Source: Mobula hypostoma
Taxonomy: Eukaryota
DNA: 64,000 nucleotides
Assembly (NCBI RefSeq): GCF_963921235.1
Contig: NC_086108.1
Span: forward strand, 27,468,001-27,532,000
Reading direction: 5' to 3'
The notes below the pieces were generated by a model. It was not told where the DNA came from. It did not search any database and saw only the letters and a list, made by a program, of their open reading frames with translations. Position 1 is the first letter of the stretch. Each line of letters starts with the position of its first letter. Of this stretch, positions 2,726-59,800 are shown in pieces. A program made the position numbers and the translations under genes.

Positions 2726-3249
2726 GTTGAGACCTGGGGAATATTGTAGGACTGGGGTCTAGGAACCTAGGAGTACAAGTACTTAGTTTCCTGAAAGTGA
2801 CACATAGACAGGATAGTGAAGAAGGTTTTTGGTGCACTGGCCTTCATTAGTCAGAGTATTACGTATAGGAAGTGGGGTGCTATGTTGCAGTTGTACAAGA
2901 TACTGCTGAGGCCCCACCTGGGGTATTGTGTATAGTTTTGGTTACCCTGTTATAGGAAAGACATCATTATGCTGGAAATAATGTAAAACACATTTACAAA
3001 AAAAGATGCCAAGATTTGAGGGCCTGAGTTAAAGGGAGAAGTTGGATAGGCAAGGACTTTATTCCTTGGAGTGCAGGAAACTATGGGTGACCTTACAGAG
3101 GTGTATAAAATCACGAGGGTCATAGGTAGGGTGAGTATGCATTTTTTTTAGGGAAAGGGAGTCAAAAACCAGAAGACATGGGTTTAAGCAACACACATCA
3201 AAGTTGCTGGTGAACGCAGCAGGCCAGGCAGCATCTCTAGGAAGAGGTG

Positions 3250-3287
3250 CAGTCGACGTTTCAGGCCGAGACCCTTCGTCAGGACTA
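3250..3287 (-). ncRNA. Minimal type-I hammerhead ribozyme, PLE type
   Basis: Minus strand: uaguc CUGACGA agg-gucucgg-ccu GAAA C GUC gacug; helix I uaguc/gacug, helix II agg/ccu, palindromic ACGU for a dimeric helix III, GUC cleavage triplet. Confidence 0.8.
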
Positions 3288-3766
3288 ACTGAAGGAAGAG
3301 TGAGTAAGAGATATGAAAGTTGGAGGGGGAGGGGGAGATCCAAAATGATAGGAGAAGACAGGAGGGGGAGGGATGGAGCCAAGAGCTGGACAGGTGATTG
3401 GCAAAAGGGATACGAGAGGATCATGGGACAGGAGGTCAGAGAAGAAAGACAAGGCGGTGGGGGGGGGGGAACCCAGAGGATGGGCAAGGGGTATATTCAG
3501 AGGGACAAAGGGAGAAAAAGGAGAGTGAGAGAAAGAATGTGTGTTTAAAATAAATAATAGTTGGTGTACGATGGGGAGGTGGGGCATTAGTGGAAGTTAG
3601 AGAAGTCAATGTTCATGCCATCCTGTCCCATGATCCTCTCGTATCCCTTTTGGCAATCACCTGTCCAGCTCTTGGCTCCATCCCTCCCCCTCCTGTCTTG
3701 TCCTATCATTTTGGATCTCCTCCTCCCCCTCCAACTTTCATATCTCTTACTCACTCTTCCTTCAGT

Positions 3767-3804
3767 TAGTCCTGACGAAGAGTCTCGGCCTGAAACGTCG
3801 ACTG
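3767..3804 (+). ncRNA. Minimal type-I hammerhead ribozyme, inverted copy with one helix II mismatch
   Basis: tagtc CTGACGA(3772-3778) aga-gtctcgg-cct GAAA(3792-3795) c GTC gactg. Confidence 0.72.
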
Positions 3805-4554
3805 TACCTCTTCCTAGAGATGCTGCCTGGCCTGCTGCGTTCACCAGCAACTTTGATGTGTGTTGCTGAGACATGGGTTTAAGGTGAGAGAGGAAAGAGT
3901 TAAAAGGAACAGGAAGACAACCTTTTTTGTGTAAAGATGGTGCATGATATGAAACAACTGGTGGAGGAAGAAAGAGCTTAAGGCAGTTGCAATACAACAT
4001 TTAAAAGACAGTTGGTCAGATACATAGACAGGAAAGATTTAGAGGGACATGGGCCCAACAAGGACAAATAGGACTAGTTTAGATGGGCATGTTTGTCAGC
4101 ACGGGCAAATTGGGCCTGAGGGCCTGTTTCTGTGCTGTCTCGTCCTATGACTCCATGACCTACAATGCACTGGTGGTAGACCTGTGGAAACAGATTCAAT
4201 AAATGCCAATGAAAGGGATACAGACTTGAGAGAGATAAGTTGCACAGCCTAAGGAATAGGACTGATAAGAAACCAGAAGAGACTTCATAAGCAAAGTGGT
4301 CTTATATGTTGTAGCAATGCTACAATTCTGTGAACAAACAAGGGCTGATCAGGCATTGCATTCCCAGCAAAGTCTAACTAAAATATGGCCCACAATCTCT
4401 CAGCAAAACAGGCCAGTAATTGGAATCTCAGGAAGTATTTAATGGGATCAAAGATCCTGGTGGACTTCAGGTATTGTGAAGTACCAAAAAGATGTTAAAA
4501 TACTAGTGGAGAAAAAAAGAAATGTTATAGAAGGAGAATTGAAGTTCAATTTGA

Positions 4555-7153: not shown

Positions 7154-8403
7154 TACATAGGTGATGCAGGACAAGAACACACACGTCTCCAGAGTACAGC
7201 TGGATTTCAAAGGATCTGCAGCTTTTGAGATGGTAAAATGGGCTGCTTTGTTAAGACTTGCTTTCGAAGCCTTTTCAATTCAAACTGCAGTGTTTCACCC
7301 GCCTTCCATTCTTATAACTGAGATTGACAAGCGGAACAATTGATTTGCATGAACATTACCATCTCATTTGCATGAATATTTCCAGCATTGTCATTTCCCA
7401 TGCTCTCTGCCTGTCTTTGCTTGTGCTGGTTGACCTTAATTACGTTGCTGTCTCCAAGATTCCTCAAAATATCTGGCAGAAAGATCCCCCTGGGATTCAA
7501 TCCAAACCCCGCCTGGCCATTCCCAATACAAACAAGGGCAAATTCCTGACAAGTTGCCACACTTTCCAAAGGAAACCCTTGCAGATGTTAGGAGAGTCCC
7601 AGAAACCACCACGTTCCACTGCAGGTAAACTTTGAGTGATTCCTTCAAATTACAACATTCCTTCCCAGGTACCACCCCAACCCCTCCACTAATTCTGATG
7701 CATTCCTCTGAGGCTCCTTGTAAGTATTAGTATGTTGCTGAGGAACATTTGTTCTAATTGGCAAAATATAGCAACAGCTAACTGTAGCAAAAAATATCAT
7801 GTTAAAGCTAAAAATTCATTATCTGACATTTTACAGCAAAAATCATGTGATGGTAGACTAGCTGAAGAGGAATTTTAATTCTATCATTTTTTATTGCTGC
7901 CCCAGTATCAGCTGCTCTCAGGTTAGCGGACAGGGCTTTGTGTTTCATACAAAGGAGCTAGTAATAATGTTGAGTATGAATGGAACCATTCAGCAAGAGA
8001 GATACGGTGAGTGGAATGAGGGTGTTGTCAAGTCAAGCAAGTCTAGGTAGTCTGGGGTTTGCATCCCTCAGAGTTCAGAAGAATGAGGGTGGCCTTATAC
8101 AAACCTATAAGATCCTCGGGGGCTTGAGATGGTAGATGCTAAGATGTTCTCACTAGTGAGAGAGTAACAGAGTCACAAACAAAGGGACACAGGCACAAAA
8201 TAAGGAGCTGGTCATTTAAAACAGAGGTGAGTAGAAAACACAAAATGCTGGAGGAACTCAGCTGATCAGGCAGCATCTGTGGAAAGGAATAAAGAGTTGA
8301 TGTTTCAGCCGAGACCCTTCAGTGAACCTCTGGAACTCTTTGCTCCTTAAAGTGATGGGGGGGGGGCGCAGATCATTAGATGTAAGTAATGTGGAGAAAG
8401 GTA

Positions 8404-9032: not shown

Positions 9033-9553
9033 TACATATTTGATGATTAAGGCATTGTGAATGATGGGGAACTGGCACAGAAGAGGAGTCGAGGGCCAAC
9101 ATTGATCAACAATGATCATATTGAATTGTGGGGAAGGACAGAATAGCTGTGTGACCTACTTCCACTCCAGTTTTCTTGGGAGGACATGAGATGTATCAAT
9201 GCTGCATTCTGTTGGAGTGTGTCCATGTTGCTATGGTAAATGTCTTCACTCAGAGGAACTTTGACACAGTTTTTGACCTATTTCCTTCTACGTTTCACCT
9301 GTCTCCACCACATTGTCAGTGAATCATTTTGGAAAAGTGCAAACTGTGAACAACTTTGATCCTACTAACTTTGCAGTTAAGTGTTGGGAAGTTGGGTGTG
9401 GATTATTTTCAGCATCTAAAACTTTATTTGGAATGACTTCGTATTCTTCACAAGGCCTTTGGCACAACTAGCAATGTGGCTCAATCATGCTGGTTGAAGT
9501 TTTAGTCTGTCCTAATCTTTCATAGCCTTAAACTTTAAAGCATATGGAACTGC

Positions 9554-9745
9554 AAACACGAGGAAATTTGCAGATGCTGGAATTTCAAGCAACACACATA
9601 AAAGTTGCTGGTGAATGCAGCAGGCCAGGCAGCATCTCTAGGAAGAAGGATCCTGACAAAGGGTCTCAGCCCGAAACGTCGACTGTACCTCTTCCTAGAG
9701 ATGCTGCCTGGCCTGCTGCGTTCACCAGCAACATTTATGTGTGTT
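9554..9745. mobile_element. Short palindromic PLE-derived element with a degenerate hammerhead in the loop
   Basis: Inverted arms about 9589-9646 and 9690-9747; loop contains ctgacaa agg..ccc GAAA cgtc gactg; duplication gcatatggaa(c/t)tgc at 9540-9553 and 9746-9759. Confidence 0.85.
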
Positions 9746-10608
9746 GCATATGGAATTGCCATGTGTTTGCAAAAGGACCCGCTTTGACTCTGGTCTGATC
9801 TGTTCTGTTAGAGTAGTTTGAATGTACCTTCATATATTTCTCTGGAGTAAAGTTGTGAATTTGAAATGACAGCAGTGAAATCAATCTGTGTTGAGCTGTC
9901 AGTTAGTCCATCCATCTTTAAAATTTGACTGTTCTCATTACTTGCTACAATGGTAGGTAGCAAGATTGCCACTCATCCAATTTGCAAAAGAGGACAATCA
10001 CACAAATATTAAAAAAAAGAAAACAAAAACACATGAAGCATTAACTGCAGAGTCCCTGAAAGTGAGTCCACAACTGCGGAGCCCGTTCAGCACTGAGACG
10101 AGTGAAGCTCGTCCAGGAGCCTAATGGCTGCAGGGAAACCACTGTTCTCAAACCTGGCAATGTGGGACACGAGGTTCTTGCACCTCCCACCCAACTGTTG
10201 TAGCGAGAAGAGAGAGAGACAGACCAATCAACAGCAGGCAGACAGTGCTGAACACTTGTTCATTTTCTACTCTCATCAACAACGATTTTAATCTTTCTTG
10301 ACGCTATAATTGGTGCGGAGTAATGGAGCCAACCTCGGATTCATATTCCATTATCAGGCCTCGACACTGTATCCACCCCCTGAGATGGCCATATCTGCAA
10401 TCTCGAAAGTCTACTTCACCAAGTCCCCTAGGAGATCGCAAGCCTACCAAATCACTTAGGGTTCAAAACTGCATCCATAAAATGGAAATTAGAGGCTACA
10501 GACTGCAGCGATTGCAGTTCAGAGGACCGGGGAATTAATATAGTTCACATAGATGTCATACAGATTTGAAAGGGATGATGGCAAAACAGGCCAATAGCAG
10601 ACATGGTA

Positions 10609-29643: not shown

Positions 29644-31732
29644 AAAGAATAAATCTTGGCAAAAGAATAAATCAAGGAAGGTAGTGCACCCGTGGCTGAC
29701 AAGAGAAATTAGGGATAGTATCAATTCCAAAGAAGTAGCATACAAATTAGCCAGAGAAAGTGGCTCACCTGAGGACTAGGAGAAATTCAGAGTTCAGCAG
29801 AGGAGGACAAAGGGCTTAATTAGGAAGGGGAAAAAAGATTATGAGAGAAAACTGGCAGAGAACATAAAAACGGACTGTAAAAGCTTTTATAGATATGTAA
29901 AAAGGAAAAGACTGATAAAGACAAATGTAGGTCCCCTGCAGACAGAAACAGGTGAATTGATTATGGGGAGGAAGGACATGGCAGACCAATTGAATAATTA
30001 CTTTGGTTCTGTCTTCACTAAGGAGGACATAAATAATCTTCCAGAAATAGTAAGGGACAGAGGGTCCAGTGAGATGGAGGAACTGAGTGAAATACATGTT
30101 AGTAGGGAAGTGGTGTTAGGTAAATTGAAGGGATTGAAGGCAGATAAATCCCCAGGGCCAGATGGTCTGCATCCCAGAGTGCTTAAGGAAGTAGCCCAAG
30201 AAATAGTGCATGCATTAGTGATAATTTTTCAAAACTCGTTAGATTCTGGACTAGTTCCTGAGGATTGGAGGGTGACTAATGTAACCCCACTTTTTAAAAA
30301 AGGAGGGAGAGAGAAACCGGGGAATTATAGGCCGGTTAGCCTAACGTCGGTGGTGGGGAAACTGCTGGAGTCAGTTATCAAGGATGTGATAACAGCACAT
30401 TTGGAAAGCGGTGAAATGATCGGACAAAGTCAGCATGGATTTGTGAAAGGAAAATCATGTCTGACGAATCTCATAGAATTTTTTGAGGATGTAACTAGTA
30501 GAGTGGATAGGGGAGAACCAGTGGATGTGGTATATTTGGATTTTCAAAAGGCTTTTGACAAGGTCCCACACAGGAGATTAGTGTGCAAACTTAAAGCACA
30601 CGGTATTGGGGGTAAGGTATTGGTGTGGGTGGAGAATTGGTTAGCAGACAGGAAGCAAAGAGTGGGAATAAACGGGACCTTTTCAGAATGGCAGGCGGTG
30701 ACTAGTGGGGTACTGCAAGGCTCAGTGCTGGGACCCCAGTTGTTTACAATATATATTAATGACTTGGATGAGGGAATTAAATGCAGCATCTCCAAGTTTG
30801 CGGATGACACGAAGCTGGGTGGCAGTGTTAGCAGTGAGGAGGATGCTAAGAGGATGCAGGGTGACTTGGATAGGTTGGGTGAGTGGGCAAACTCATGGCA
30901 AATGCAATTTAATGTGGATAAATGTGAAGTTATCCACTTTGGTGGCAAAAATAGGAAAACAGATTATTATCTGAATGGTGGCCGATTAGGAAAAGGGGAG
31001 GTGCAACGAGACCTGGGTGTCATTATACACCAGTCATTGAAAGTGGGCATGCAGGTACAGCAGGCGGTGAAAAAGGCGAACGGTATGCTGGCATTTATAG
31101 CGAGAGGATTCGAGTACAGGAGCAGGGAGGTACTACTGCAGTTGTACAAGGCCTTGGTGAGACCACACCTGGAGTCTTGTGTGCAGTTTTGGTCCCCTAA
31201 TCTGAGGAAAGACATCCTTGCCATAGAGGGAGTACAAAGAAGGTTCACCAGATTGATTCCTGGGATGGCAGGTCTTTCATATGAAGAAAGATTGGATGAA
31301 CTGGGCTTGTACTCGTTGGAATTTAGAAGATTGAGGGGGGATCTGATTGAAACGTATAAGATCCTAAAGGGATTGGACAGGCTAGATGCGGGAAGATTGT
31401 TCCCGATGTTGGGGAGGTCCAGAACGAGGGGTCACAGTTTGAGGATAGAGGGGAAGCCTTTTAGGACCGAGATTAGGAAAAACTTCTTCACACAGAGAGT
31501 GGTGAATCTGTGGAATTCTCTGCCACAGCAAACTGTTGAGGCCAGTTCATTGGCTATGTTTAAGAGGGAGTTAGATATGGCCCTTGTGGCTACAGGGGTC
31601 AGGGGGTATGGAGGGAAGGCTGGGTTCTGAGTTGGATGATCAGCCATGATCATTATAAATGGCGGTGCAGGCTCGAAGGGCCGAATGGCCTACTCCTGCA
31701 CCTATTTTCTATGTTTCTATGTTTCTATGTTT
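29644..31732 (+). mobile_element. Young 5'-truncated CR1 LINE
   Basis: Uninterrupted 557 aa RT frame, 3' UTR and (ttctatgt)n tail; splits the Gypsy RT, cac duplicated at the junctions. Confidence 0.97.
29957..31630 (+). CDS. CR1 ORF2 reverse transcriptase portion, no endonuclease domain
   Basis: KSPGPDG, NYRPVSLTS, QHGF, YLDFQKAFD, GVLQGSVLGP, FADD, RDLGV. Confidence 0.9.
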   Translation: MIMGRKDMADQLNNYFGSVFTKEDINNLPEIVRDRGSSEMEELSEIHVSREVVLGKLKGLKADKSPGPDGLHPRVLKEVAQEIVHALVIIFQNSLDSGLVPEDWRVTNVTPLFKKGGREKPGNYRPVSLTSVVGKLLESVIKDVITAHLESGEMIGQSQHGFVKGKSCLTNLIEFFEDVTSRVDRGEPVDVVYLDFQKAFDKVPHRRLVCKLKAHGIGGKVLVWVENWLADRKQRVGINGTFSEWQAVTSGVLQGSVLGPQLFTIYINDLDEGIKCSISKFADDTKLGGSVSSEEDAKRMQGDLDRLGEWANSWQMQFNVDKCEVIHFGGKNRKTDYYLNGGRLGKGEVQRDLGVIIHQSLKVGMQVQQAVKKANGMLAFIARGFEYRSREVLLQLYKALVRPHLESCVQFWSPNLRKDILAIEGVQRRFTRLIPGMAGLSYEERLDELGLYSLEFRRLRGDLIETYKILKGLDRLDAGRLFPMLGRSRTRGHSLRIEGKPFRTEIRKNFFTQRVVNLWNSLPQQTVEASSLAMFKRELDMALVATGVRGYGGKAGF

Positions 31733-34316: not shown

Positions 34317-36021
34317 AAGGGTTGCCAGCTGTCCCGTATTAGCTGGGACATCCCGTATATCGGGCTAAATTGGCTTGTGCCATACGGGACCGCCCTTGTC
34401 CTGTATTTGACTGCTACTATTCTGTAATCACCAGAGGGCACGCTTACAGACAGATCCTAGATCTGATACAACAGCATGTGTGCGTGTTGCATGTGCTGTT
34501 GACGCCACGCATGAGTGATTCACCAATCATCCAATCACAGGCCCCCTTATGCGCATCAGTTGTGTGCTATATTTTGCCAATTCCTGCCAAAACAGAAAGT
34601 TTCAGTAACATCTCATGTTGTTCCGTCGGTTTGGCATGTGCCAATATGGATAAACCTCCAAAAAAGAAAGGACTGTGCAGCTGTAACAAGCAATGGGAAG
34701 CAAAGAAGACGTGGGTAAGCCCATCAGCGGTGACTCAACATCGACGAAGGCCTTCTGTACTTTATGCCGTCGGGAATTCTCAACTGGCCATGAAGGTGAG
34801 AATGACCTAACTCAGCATGCTTCCACAGAAGTGCACAAGAAGGCCACACTCGCTCAAGGTGCAAGCAATATTGGTGCATTCTTTGTGAAATCTACTGTGA
34901 AAAATGACAAAATTGCAGCAAGTGAAGCCTCGTATGTGTACCATATGGTTAAACATGGACTCAGCTACAATAGCACCAACTGTCTTGCTAAGCTCAACAG
35001 TGCTTTGTTTAAGGACTCAAATGTTGTGAAGAAGATGCACTTGGGAAGAACGAAAGCTGAGATGATTACAATGAATGTTTTAGGACCAAAGACTGTGCGG
35101 GATATTATGGATGATCTGTCACTGACTGAAGAAGGTGAGCTCTCCTTCACTGACCTGGAGCAGGTGGTGGCTGCCCTCAGAATGACAGAAGCAGTCAAAA
35201 TGGACCACCAGTGAGAAGTGGGTGGCAGTTTTCCAAAACATAGGGAAAGCCAACTTAATCAACATGTACAGAATTGTCTCCTTTGTCCTCAGTGTGTCAG
35301 GCTTGAATGCCTTTGTAGAGAGGATCTTCTCTCAGATGAGCATTAAATGGTCAGACTCAAGAAACAGATGCAGCACATAGCTGATCAAAAATGAGCTTCA
35401 AATATCTGTGAACTGTCACTTGTCATGTAAGGACTTCTCTCTGGCTGTGCAAAAGGACAAAGGACTACTTGAATCAGTCAAGAGCAGCAAGAAACATCCA
35501 TGGAAAAAGTAGATTTGGTGAGTCCCCCCCGCCTTTTTCTCTTTTGCAGTGATTATATGTCTACTCTATAGGCACATACAGATAGTCTCTTTCAAATCTC
35601 TTACTAGCTTTTCTTTCATTTTCTCCTGACGAAGGGTCTTGGCCTGAAATGTCGACTGTACCTCTTCCTAGAGATGCTGCCTGACCTGCTGTGTTCACCA
35701 GCAACTTTTATGAGGGTTATTTGGTGTTATTTCATCTCTGACTGGTAGTCAGATTATGCTCTGTATTATGGTCTGTTATAATTTGGTGTTAAATTTCATA
35801 TATAACACTGAAGGTATGTATACGTGGTTCATATATTAGATTTGTTTACTTATTTAGGGTTGTTTTCTCTCTCTCTCTCTCTCTTTTGAAAAAGGTCCCT
35901 GTTACCATCTACCAGCTGCCGGCCCCCTCAGTCACTTCATCCCAGGCCTGCACCATACCCACTCCGCTGCGGTACGCCACCTTTTGTCCCTTATTTGGGA
36001 GTGAGAAAGTTGGCAACCCTA
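34317..36021 (+). mobile_element. Internally deleted hAT DNA transposon, 1705 bp
   Basis: TIRs aagggttgcca / tggcaacccta; 8 bp TSD actcacag / actcccag; BED-type finger CTLC..H..H in ORF 34693-35214; C-terminal NAFVERIFSQM..W motif near 35300-35400. Confidence 0.92.
35588..35712 (+). mobile_element. PLE 3' fragment with hammerhead core, inside the hAT
   Basis: CTGACGA(35626-35632) agg..cct GAAA tgtc gactgtacctcttcctagagatgctgcc, matching 3772-3860. Confidence 0.85.
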
Positions 36022-56889: not shown

Positions 56890-59800
56890 TTTTCTGCAGC
56901 TGTGACGCTATCTCTGATCAGCAGTGCCATGACCCCACCTCTTTTGCCTCCCTCCCTGTCCTTTCTGAAACATCTAATGCCTGGCACTCTAAATAGCCAT
57001 TCCTGCCCCTGAACCATCCAAGTCTTAGTAATGGCCACAACATCGTAGCTCCAAGTACTGATCCACGCTCTAAACTTATCCGCTTTGTTCATGATGCTTC
57101 TTGCATTAAAATAGACTCATCTCAAACCATCAGTCTGAGCATAGCCCTTCTCTATCACCTGCCTATCCTCCCTCTCACACTGCCTACAAGATTTCTCTAT
57201 TTGTGACTAACTGCCCCTTCCTCCGTCTCTTCAGTTCAGTTCCCACCCCCCAGCAATTCTAGTTTAAACTCTCTCCAATAGCCTTAGCAAACCTCCCTGC
57301 CAAGATATTGGTCCCCCTCGGATTCAAGTGCAACCCATCCTTTTTGTACAGGTCACGCTTACCCCAAAAGAGGTCCCAACGATCCAGAAATCTGAATCCT
57401 TGCCCCTTCCTCCAATCCCTCAGGCACGCATTTATCCTCCACCTCACTCTACACTGAAACTCACTGTCACGTGGCACAGGCAGTAATCCAAAGATTACTA
57501 TCTTTGAGGTCCTGTTTCTCAGCTTCTTTCCTAATTCCCTGTAGTCTGTTTTCAGGACCTCCTCCCTTTTCCTACCTATGTCGTTGGTACCAATAAGTAC
57601 CACGACCTCTAGCTGTCCATCTTCCCACTTCAGGATATCGTGGACGTGATCAGAATCATCCCAGTCCCTGGCATCTGGGAGGCAAACTACCATCTGTATT
57701 TCTTTCTTGCATCCTCAGAATCACCTGTCTGTCCCCCTAACTATAGACTCCTCTATCACTGCTGCCATCCCCTTCCTTTCCCTACCCTTCTGAGCCAGAG
57801 GGCCAGACTTTGTGCCAGAGGTATGGCCACTGTTGCTTCCCCCAGGTAGGCCGTTCCCCCCGACAGTACTCAAACAGGAGTACTTATTGTTAAGGGGAAC
57901 AGTCACAGGGGTACTCTCTAGTTTCTGACTTTGCCCTTCCCTCTCCTGGCTGTTATCCACTTACCTGTCTCCCGAGTCCCCAGTGTGACTACTTGCCTAT
58001 CGCTCCTCTCTGTCACCTCCTCACTTTCCTTTACCAGACGAAGGTCAGCAAGCTGCATCTCCAGTTCCCTAATGCGGTCCCTAAGGAGCTGCATCTCGAC
58101 GCACCTGACGCAGATGTGGCCATCCAGGAGGCTGGGAGTCTCCCAAATGTCCCACATCTAACACCCAGTATAGAACACCAACCTCACGGACATATTTCCT
58201 GTTTCTATTCTACACAAGCAACTTACCTCGCCTCGACCCGTTATCGTCAAAGCCCTGTTGAGACAAAGCCCTCCTACTCTGGCTCTCTGTACTCCATCGC
58301 CTGCTCATCAATACCCACTCTATCACCTGTCTTCTTTTTAAATCTGTCCCGCCGGTCTAACTCACTGATGTTCACGTGCTTGTGCAGTCGTGCCTCAATC
58401 AAACCGCTGAAGAAAAGACTCTTCCCCTTTTAGATCCTTCCCGCCGGTCTAACTCGCTGACGTCCATGTGCTTGCGCAGTCGTGCCCTGATCAAAATGCA
58501 GGGAAGCTGAAAAGTAGGACCTCCAGGGTAGGAATCTCAGGATTGCTGCCTGTGCCGTGTGCTAACGAGTGCAAGAAAGCATGATCAGGCATAGTAGGGG
58601 GCAGGACTTTAGATTCCTGGATCACTGGGGCCTCTTCTGAAGGAGGTATGATCTGTACAAAAAGGGCGGATTACACCTGAACCCAAAGGGGTCCAATATC
58701 CTAGCAGGCAGGTTGAATAGAGCTGTTAGGGAGGACTTAAACTAATTTGGGAGAGGGAAGGGAACTGGAGTGATAGGGCTGAGGAAGGGGAAAACAGAAA
58801 TAAATCAAAGATAACATGCAACAGAGATGATAGAAAGGACAGGCAGCCGATAAGGCAGTGGGATAATTTACAGGGCAATAGAGGTGTGGTGCAGTTAAAA
58901 CAGAAAGCAACAAATACTGGACTGAAAGTGTTATATTTGAATGCACATAGCATAATAAGTAAAATGGACGATGTTGAAATTCAGCTACAGTTTAGAAGTA
59001 TGACATCATGGCCATCTCTGAGACTTGGCTAAAGGATGGCTGTCATTGGGAGTTGAATGTCCAAGGATATACGGTGTATCAGAAAGCTGGGTTAGTAGGC
59101 AGAGGGGGTGGTGTATAAGAAATAATATTAAATCATTAGACAGGGATGACATAGGATCAGAAGGTGTAGAGTCTCTATGGGTTGAGTTGAGAAATGGCAA
59201 GGGTAAAAGGACCTTAATGGCAGTTGTGTACAATCCTCCAAACAGCAGCCAGGATGTGGATTACAAATTACAACAGGAGACAGAAAAGGCGTGTCAGCAG
59301 GGCAATGTCATGATAATCATTAGGGATTTTAACATGAAAGTGGATTGGGAAAACCAGGTCAGTACTGGACCTCAAGAGAGAATTTGTAGAATGTCTGAAG
59401 GATGGCCTTTTAGAACAGCTTGTTACTGAACCCACTACAGGATCGGCTGTGCTGGATTGGATGCTGTGCAATGATTTGGAGATAATAAGAAAGTTTAAGG
59501 TTAAGGAACTCTTAGGGAACAGTGATCACAATATGATCGAGATCACTTTGAAATTTGAGAAGGAGAAACTAAAATCCAATGTGTTGGTATTTCAGTGGAA
59601 TAAAGGAAATTACAATGGCATGAGAGGGGAATTGGCCAAAATTGACTGGAAAGGGGCACTAATAGGATGGACAGCAGATCAGTAATGGCTGGAACTTCTG
59701 CGAAAAATGAAGGAAGTGCAAGACAGATATACTCCAAATAAGAAGGAATTTTCAAATGGAAGAAGGACACTACTGTGGCTGACAAGTGAAGTCAGAGCAA

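What the first reader, a model, noticed from the sequence alone, without database searches (positions are those of the whole stretch)
3187..3867. Young Penelope-derived foldback element with a hammerhead ribozyme on each strand
Seen: 247 bp near-perfect inverted arms, a 15 bp TSD inside a CR1, and the last PLE codons (DGMNIDFSNFH*). Each arm has CUGANGA, helix II, GAAA-C-GUC and a 5 bp helix I (uaguc/gacug). Established: PLE terminal repeats carry minimal type-I hammerheads that lack a monomeric helix III and are thought to act as dimers through a palindrome (here ACGU). Inference: transcription from either direction would include one sense ribozyme (cut between 3255/3254 on minus, after 3799 on plus). 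The same RNA would also form a ~250 bp hairpin that masks it and could feed ADAR or Dicer.
Basis: partly seen in the sequence, partly recalled or inferred. Interest (0 to 1): 0.75.

Follow-up and report, generated by a model that had tools for sequence, protein, structure and literature searches.

The report
Ordinary head-to-head Penelope retrotransposon insertion
This hairpin-shaped insert is real but ordinary: it is two cut-short ends of a very abundant Penelope-type jumping gene joined head to head, likely when the element landed, a layout already in print, and its two self-cutting RNA motifs are predicted to be inactive in any RNA read through it.

Summary
In detail: 247-bp arms with 5 mismatches, a perfect 15-bp target duplication, the end of a Penelope-like (PLE) reading frame, and a minimal hammerhead on each strand. 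One correction: the right ribozyme has a helix II mismatch. It is not a spreading foldback element. The ribozyme core has 45,252 exact genome matches. 34 of 67 sampled insertions have such an inverted partner. This junction occurs twice in the genome, the second time in another subfamily. Opposite-strand PLE hammerheads 100-700 bp apart, inverted ends with a one-sided tail, and siRNAs from inverted Penelope copies are all published. In either direction the antisense arm is transcribed first and no second sense ribozyme exists, so cleavage is unlikely. The family pattern (74 of 75 pairs with exactly one tail, arms mostly from one template) points to twin priming on one RNA; this copy is the one tail-less pair. 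The scan has noted this layout many times before, in this and other genomes. Expression was not tested.

The parts
3174..3188 (+). left copy of 15-bp target-site duplication
   Evidence: 15 of 15 identical to 3869-3883
3189..3622 (-). long arm: 5'-truncated PLE 3' end (last 11 codons, stop, 3' UTR/pLTR), no 36-nt tail
   Evidence: aligns to family reference from about -429 to +6
3587..3622 (-). last codons and stop of the PLE RT/GIY-YIG frame
3250..3287 (-). minimal type-I hammerhead with family-majority sequence; predicted cut 3255/3254
3434..3620 (.). 187-bp spacer: the part of the long arm that has no partner
3621..3622 (.). head-to-head junction, 2-nt overlap (TC) shared by both arms
3621..3868 (+). 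short arm: second 5'-truncated PLE 3' end, no tail
   Evidence: aligns from -245 to +2
3767..3804 (+). minimal type-I hammerhead with G>A at 3781 breaking helix II; predicted cut after 3799
3869..3883 (+). right copy of target-site duplication
2860..3188 (+). interrupted decayed LINE, part before the insertion (CR1-like; label recalled)
   Evidence: translation; both flanks collinear in L045, L101, L115
3869..4160 (+). interrupted decayed LINE, part after the insertion

Best explanation
This is a single dead-end insertion of an endonuclease-bearing Penelope-like retrotransposon: two 5'-truncated copies of its ribozyme-bearing 3' end sit head to head between a 15-bp target duplication, likely because both nicked target strands primed reverse transcription on one element RNA and the two short cDNAs were then joined. 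Shown: the anatomy, the parent family, the frequency of this layout, non-propagation of the junction. Inferred: staggered nicks 15 bp apart; priming from both strands; truncation at about 434 and 247 nt; joining at a 2-nt overlap. The ribozymes are passengers of the terminal repeat. In a read-through RNA from either strand they would be zipped into the arm-arm duplex and have no second sense partner, so they are predicted not to cut. Confidence is about 0.92 for the identity and about 0.65 for one-RNA twin priming.
For: Parent: RT with YIDD and C-terminal GIY-YIG (Pfam E 8.6e-5 and 2.6e-4), and a long copy preceded by a tandem terminal repeat whose tail runs into the body. 45,252 exact core matches, 0 for the reversed control. 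34 of 67 ribozyme-anchored insertions have a head-to-head partner; 26 of those 34 show 12-17-bp duplications. Exact junction at 2 places; 23 distinct junctions among 25 nearby matches; the second same-junction copy differs at 28 of 423 sites, 11 of them polymorphic family sites. 74 of 75 pairs carry exactly one tail. Arms disagree at 79 of 753 subfamily sites (10.5%) against 42.4 +/- 3.5% in 1000 shuffles, and share rare variants at 0.22% of sites against 0.03% shuffled. The tail is on the shorter arm in 40 of 63 unequal pairs, which a fold-back copy of the longer arm cannot give. A lizard PLE protein nicks and extends both strands and has two RT start sites bounding the tail (PMC11167929, parts 1-2 read). 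Folding pairs 37 of 38 and 38 of 38 ribozyme bases with the other arm.
Against: This very copy has no tail on either arm, the only such case among 75 pairs, so it departs from the rule used to infer the mechanism. A few pairs mix subfamilies (L010 9 of 33, L083 6 of 15, L093 5 of 16 sites), which one template does not explain. Arm agreement could also come from co-active subfamilies or later gene conversion; the shuffle does not match ages. Only 6 of 50 pairs show any shared rare variant. In vitro, both strands used the same RT start sites. Both Pfam scores are below the curated cut-offs. The frequency sample comes from the first 4.4 Mb of one contig.
Confidence: 0.8

Rival explanations
1. Same PLE insertion, but made by a dimeric enzyme copying two different RNA molecules (or the two terminal repeats of one tandem RNA), one per target strand.
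For: Mixed-subfamily pairs exist; here the arms differ at one common polymorphic site (3249/3805). The lizard protein is predicted to be a dimer. 6 of the 50 listed palindromic loci have discordant arms (read by eye).
Against: 16 of 17 subfamily sites agree in this copy and both arms share a variant seen in 3 of 109 copies. Free choice of start site by two RNAs would not give one tail in 74 of 75 pairs.
Confidence: 0.2
2. Fold-back self-priming: one cDNA or an antisense template folds on itself and is copied back, as proposed for rotifer Penelope palindromic junctions.
For: Proposed in PMC3846280 (passages). Explains identical arms and short overlaps at junctions. This tail-less copy is compatible with it. 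84 perfect palindromic joins at a 6-nt palindrome.
Against: In 40 of 63 unequal pairs the shorter arm carries a tail that the longer arm lacks; a copy cannot hold what its template lacks.
Confidence: 0.1
3. A self-propagating non-autonomous foldback element whose ribozymes process its RNA.
For: One other locus (L002) has the same junction. PLE terminal repeats alone can mobilise sequence in trans.
Against: L002 is 6.6% away, farther than at least 8 other sampled copies of 61, and has a tail this copy lacks. Junctions are heterogeneous. The right ribozyme is damaged.
Confidence: 0.03
4. The locus has a host role as a source of double-stranded RNA for Dicer or ADAR.
For: Predicted hairpin of about -547 kcal/mol. 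siRNAs map to inverted regions of Penelope copies in Drosophila (PMC3681739, passages).
Against: No host-gene domain among 140 of 141 open frames of 85+ codons in the window, only mobile-element-type domains (short exons would be missed). No A>G excess in arms of 75 pairs: A>G 0.84%, T>C 0.61%, G>A 1.1%, C>T 1.3%. Nothing singles this copy out from thousands like it.
Confidence: 0.1

Closest known systems
Inverted-pLTR insertions of endonuclease-positive PLEs (PMC8557442 Fig. 2 legend and text; PMC3846280; passages read)
   Same: Inverted 5'-truncated copy next to the 5' end, inverted repeats flanking the unit, target duplication, head-to-head order, 30-40-bp tail usually at one end.
   Different: This copy has no tail at either end; family duplications are 12-17 bp against 8-10 bp in the rotifer examples; both halves are short and non-coding.
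Minimal type-I hammerheads of metazoan PLEs (PMC4209133, parts 1-2 of 4 read)
   Same: Core, 5-bp helix I, extra base between 9 and 10.1, no monomeric helix III, palindromic dimer junction. The paper reports dual motifs about 100-700 bp apart on opposite strands; here the cut sites are 545 bp apart.
   Different: Helix II is short (4 bp) and position 11.1 is U (G-U, or A-U in another register) rather than the usual G10.1-C11.1; C occurs in 47 of 183 sampled copies.
PAc (Poseidon of Anolis) in vitro system (PMC11167929, parts 1-2 of 4 read)
   Same: Tail bounded by two RT start sites; both target strands nicked and extended; ribozyme not needed for insertion.
   Different: Different PLE lineage; there the ORF starts inside the ribozyme, here the first ATG seen in one long copy lies after the tail. 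That study did not report inverted products in the parts read.
L1 twin priming (recalled, not from a call)
   Same: Two target strands prime on one RNA and the cDNAs are joined at short overlaps, giving an inversion.
   Different: L1 products invert non-overlapping parts of the RNA; here both arms copy the same 3' end.
Non-LTR retrozymes (bioRxiv 10.64898/2026.07.22.740005, part 1 of 5 read)
   Same: Non-coding, PLE-derived, type-I hammerheads.
   Different: Retrozymes are head-to-tail tandems with two or more same-strand ribozymes; this is a head-to-head pair.

Membership tests
Endonuclease-positive PLE | One ORF with RT and C-terminal GIY-YIG endonuclease in the parent | tested here: met
   E 8.6e-5 and 2.6e-4, both under Pfam cut-offs; nearest clusters carry GIY-YIG in 12-32% of members
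Endonuclease-positive PLE | Tandem pseudo-LTR whose tail continues into the body | tested here: met
   L019/L020 long copy
Endonuclease-positive PLE | Inverted 5'-truncated copy and target duplication | tested here: met
Endonuclease-positive PLE | Optional 30-40-bp tail at one end | tested here: not met
   absent at both ends of this copy; present once in 74 of 75 family pairs; described as optional
Neptune/Nematis PLE clades | Zn-finger-like motif between RT and endonuclease | tested here: met
   CKRNKCYTC in parent frames; criterion
Neptune/Nematis PLE clades | Placement in an RT tree with named references | not tested
   no named reference sequences were fetched
Minimal type-I hammerhead | Core CUGANGA/GAAA/NUH, helix I of 4-5 bp, palindromic 15.1-16.1 junction | tested here: met
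Minimal type-I hammerhead | Stable helix II | tested here: inconclusive
   left -2.3 kcal/mol (met), right +1.8 (not met)
Minimal type-I hammerhead | G10.1-C11.1 pair | tested here: not met
   U at 11.1 in both arms and in 134 of 183 copies
Minimal type-I hammerhead | Match to an Rfam hammerhead model | tested here: not met
   none at E<=10
Minimal type-I hammerhead | Self-cleavage as a dimer | not testable with these tools
   needs a bench assay
Non-autonomous foldback element (MITE-like) | Many copies sharing one internal structure | tested here: not met
Non-LTR retrozyme | Head-to-tail tandem with two or more same-strand ribozymes | tested here: not met
   definition

The most novel reading that the evidence does not exclude
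The family's inverted insertions are a genome-scale record of the unexplained PLE integration step: one RNA is primed twice, once at each of the two RT start sites 36 nt apart, which forces one tailed and one tail-less arm. This copy would be a rare case in which target sequence resembling the tail's inner end (5 of 6 bases) let both strands use the inner site, or let the tail be deleted afterwards.
Probability: 0.55. Interest if true: 0.45.

Novelty: already known. Interest (0 to 1): 0.17.

Why it matters
The locus itself matters little: it is one of roughly ten to twenty thousand similar insertions (a rough extrapolation). The family statistics matter more. Published work says the origin of PLE tandem and inverted structures is still undefined. 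The one-tail rule, same-template arms and tails on the shorter arm give sharp predictions for the existing in vitro system. So many hairpin-forming inserts could also be a sizeable source of double-stranded RNA in this host, which is untested.

Tried and rejected
Rfam scan: no hammerhead family; the PrrB/RsmZ hit (20.7 bits, cut-off 44) taken as chance. Sequencing runs: no RNA holder listed; all 23 rows are contigs, so no reads were laid. Genomic trace of ribozyme cutting: among the 100 listed of 2,831 copies truncated or rearranged within the ribozyme region, read by eye, 1 starts unambiguously at the cut site and 5 are perfect palindromes centred on it. Genome-wide, palindromic joins number 84 at the cut site (6-nt palindrome), 27 at the 4-nt palindrome beside it and 5 at a 4-nt palindrome 18 nt on (the last covers one variant only). 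Cutting and microhomology give the same sequence there, so this is inconclusive. That is weak support for selection on source elements and says nothing for this copy. A-to-I footprint: none. Paper search 'Penelope, inverted, twin priming' gave 2 papers whose titles are not about PLE integration (listing only); 'Penelope, hammerhead, elasmobranch' at 2 of 3 terms listed no paper with all three among the 15 shown. Supplements of the cited papers were not opened and may hold tail or junction counts.

Full report
Observation. The window shows inverted arms 3187-3433 and 3621-3867 (247 bp, 5 mismatches, no gaps) around a 187-bp spacer, and a perfect 15-bp direct repeat at 3174-3188 and 3869-3883. 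The longest perfect inverted match is 62 bp against at most 18 in 200 shuffles. The flanks are collinear parts of one decayed LINE; three other loci carry both parts in order, and in L101 they overlap at the duplicated site. 'CR1' is my recalled label. The minus-strand frame ends DGMNIDFSNFH* at 3622-3587. A hammerhead core descriptor hits once per arm; Rfam has no hammerhead match.

Anatomy. Against a long family copy, the left part is the last 434 nt or so of the element on the minus strand and the right part the last 247 nt on the plus strand, joined 5' to 5' at a 2-nt overlap. The spacer is just the unpartnered part of the long arm. [quoted passage not shown] One long copy is preceded by a tandem terminal repeat whose tail runs into the body. 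This is an endonuclease-bearing PLE with the linker motif of Neptune/Nematis (criterion); no tree was built.

How common. The 34-nt ribozyme core has 22,605 + 22,647 exact matches in the 3.48-Gb genome and none reversed. I fetched loci for the first 74 of the 100 listed places. They resolve to 67 insertions; 34 have a head-to-head partner, 30 of them with both outer ends in view, and 26 show a 12-17-bp duplication. The window holds a second, smaller example near 9550-9750.

Not a spreading unit. The exact junction occurs at 2 places. A gapped pattern finds 25 nearby junctions, 23 of them distinct. The other same-junction copy differs at 28 of 423 sites, is farther than at least 8 of 61 compared copies, and has its own tail and duplication, so it most likely reused the same overlap.

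Mechanism. The 75 pairs analysed pool junction-selected, ribozyme-anchored, truncation-selected and random-block loci; 8 duplicate loci, copies under 84% identity and copies ending more than 60 nt short were dropped. 74 of 75 carry exactly one 36-nt tail (p=4e-21 against one half). Arms disagree at 79 of 753 subfamily sites against 42% in shuffles and share rare variants about eight times more often than shuffles, though in only 6 of 50 longer pairs. The tail is on the shorter arm in 40 and the longer in 23 unequal pairs, against simple fold-back copying. A lizard PLE protein nicks and extends both strands and starts RT at two sites bounding the tail. Twin priming on one RNA fits best. Against it: some pairs mix subfamilies, the shuffle is not age-matched, gene conversion is not excluded, and in vitro both strands used the same start sites. 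I reached this reading before seeing earlier scan notes that say the same; they are not independent support.

This copy's oddity. It is the one tail-less pair of 75. The last 6 bases of the left duplication match the tail's inner end at 5 of 6 positions (sequence), so priming at the inner site or later deletion of the tail are both possible.

Ribozymes. The left one has the family-majority sequence and a 4-bp helix II (-2.3 kcal/mol). The right has G>A at 3781, found in 1 of 172 copies, and no stable helix II (+1.8). Head-to-head geometry puts the antisense arm first on both strands, and folding pairs 37 of 38 and 38 of 38 ribozyme bases with the other arm. Sense plus antisense gives -77 kcal/mol against -30 and -23 for the best homodimer folds, which are not the active fold. 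Published minimal PLE hammerheads show no monomer cleavage and low dimer cleavage; the lizard one needs protein and is dispensable for insertion in vitro. Core conservation across copies is marginal (p=0.047) and there is no A>G excess. Tests for a genomic trace of cutting were inconclusive. Transcription was not tested; Pfam found only mobile-element-type domains in 140 of the window's 141 long frames.

Known. PMC4209133 (parts 1-2 of 4 read) reports dual minimal hammerheads about 100-700 bp apart on opposite strands. PMC8557442 and PMC3846280 (passages) describe the inverted truncated copy, the one-sided optional tail and head-to-head order. PMC3681739 (passages) reports siRNAs matching inverted regions of Penelope copies. 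The scan's own index returns 1,775 notes in this genome for 'Penelope hammerhead inverted' and 24 closer ones in at least 13 genomes.

Verdict. Interest 0.17. What remains of value is the family-level evidence on how PLEs integrate.

Noticed in passing
window 9540-9760: Second, smaller head-to-head pair of the same family, with the tail on the left arm and a decayed duplication; its ribozyme core is mutated.
   Followed up: partly
window 35589-35718, 844-919, 8246-8320: Further older single fragments of the same or related PLE ends (75-88% identity).
   Followed up: no
G000, 84 loci, e.g. L153-L158: Perfect palindromic joins centred on the predicted ribozyme cut site; 5 of 6 fetched have one full tail and a partner ending near the family end. 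Cutting and 6-nt microhomology cannot be told apart.
   Followed up: partly
L031-L122: Many arms stop about 90-125 nt from the family end, near the front of the ribozyme; part of this is forced by the search anchor.
   Followed up: no
L010, L083, L093: Pairs whose arms differ at 5-9 subfamily sites, suggesting two templates or a template switch.
   Followed up: partly
L003, L067, L071, L083, L092: Tail-less arm ends 32-53 nt short of the usual end.
   Followed up: no
window 3791 (and 3263): Position 11.1 of the ribozyme is U in most copies (134 of 183) and C in a minority; the only subfamily site inside the ribozyme.
   Followed up: partly
L019:6995-10000 and L020:1-576: Near full-length 3.6-kb family copy with stops and frameshifts, preceded by a tandem terminal-repeat stub.
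   Followed up: partly
window 29780-31627, 57262-57714: A 616-codon open RT frame and a GDSL-esterase frame, both of LINE type by recall.
   Followed up: no
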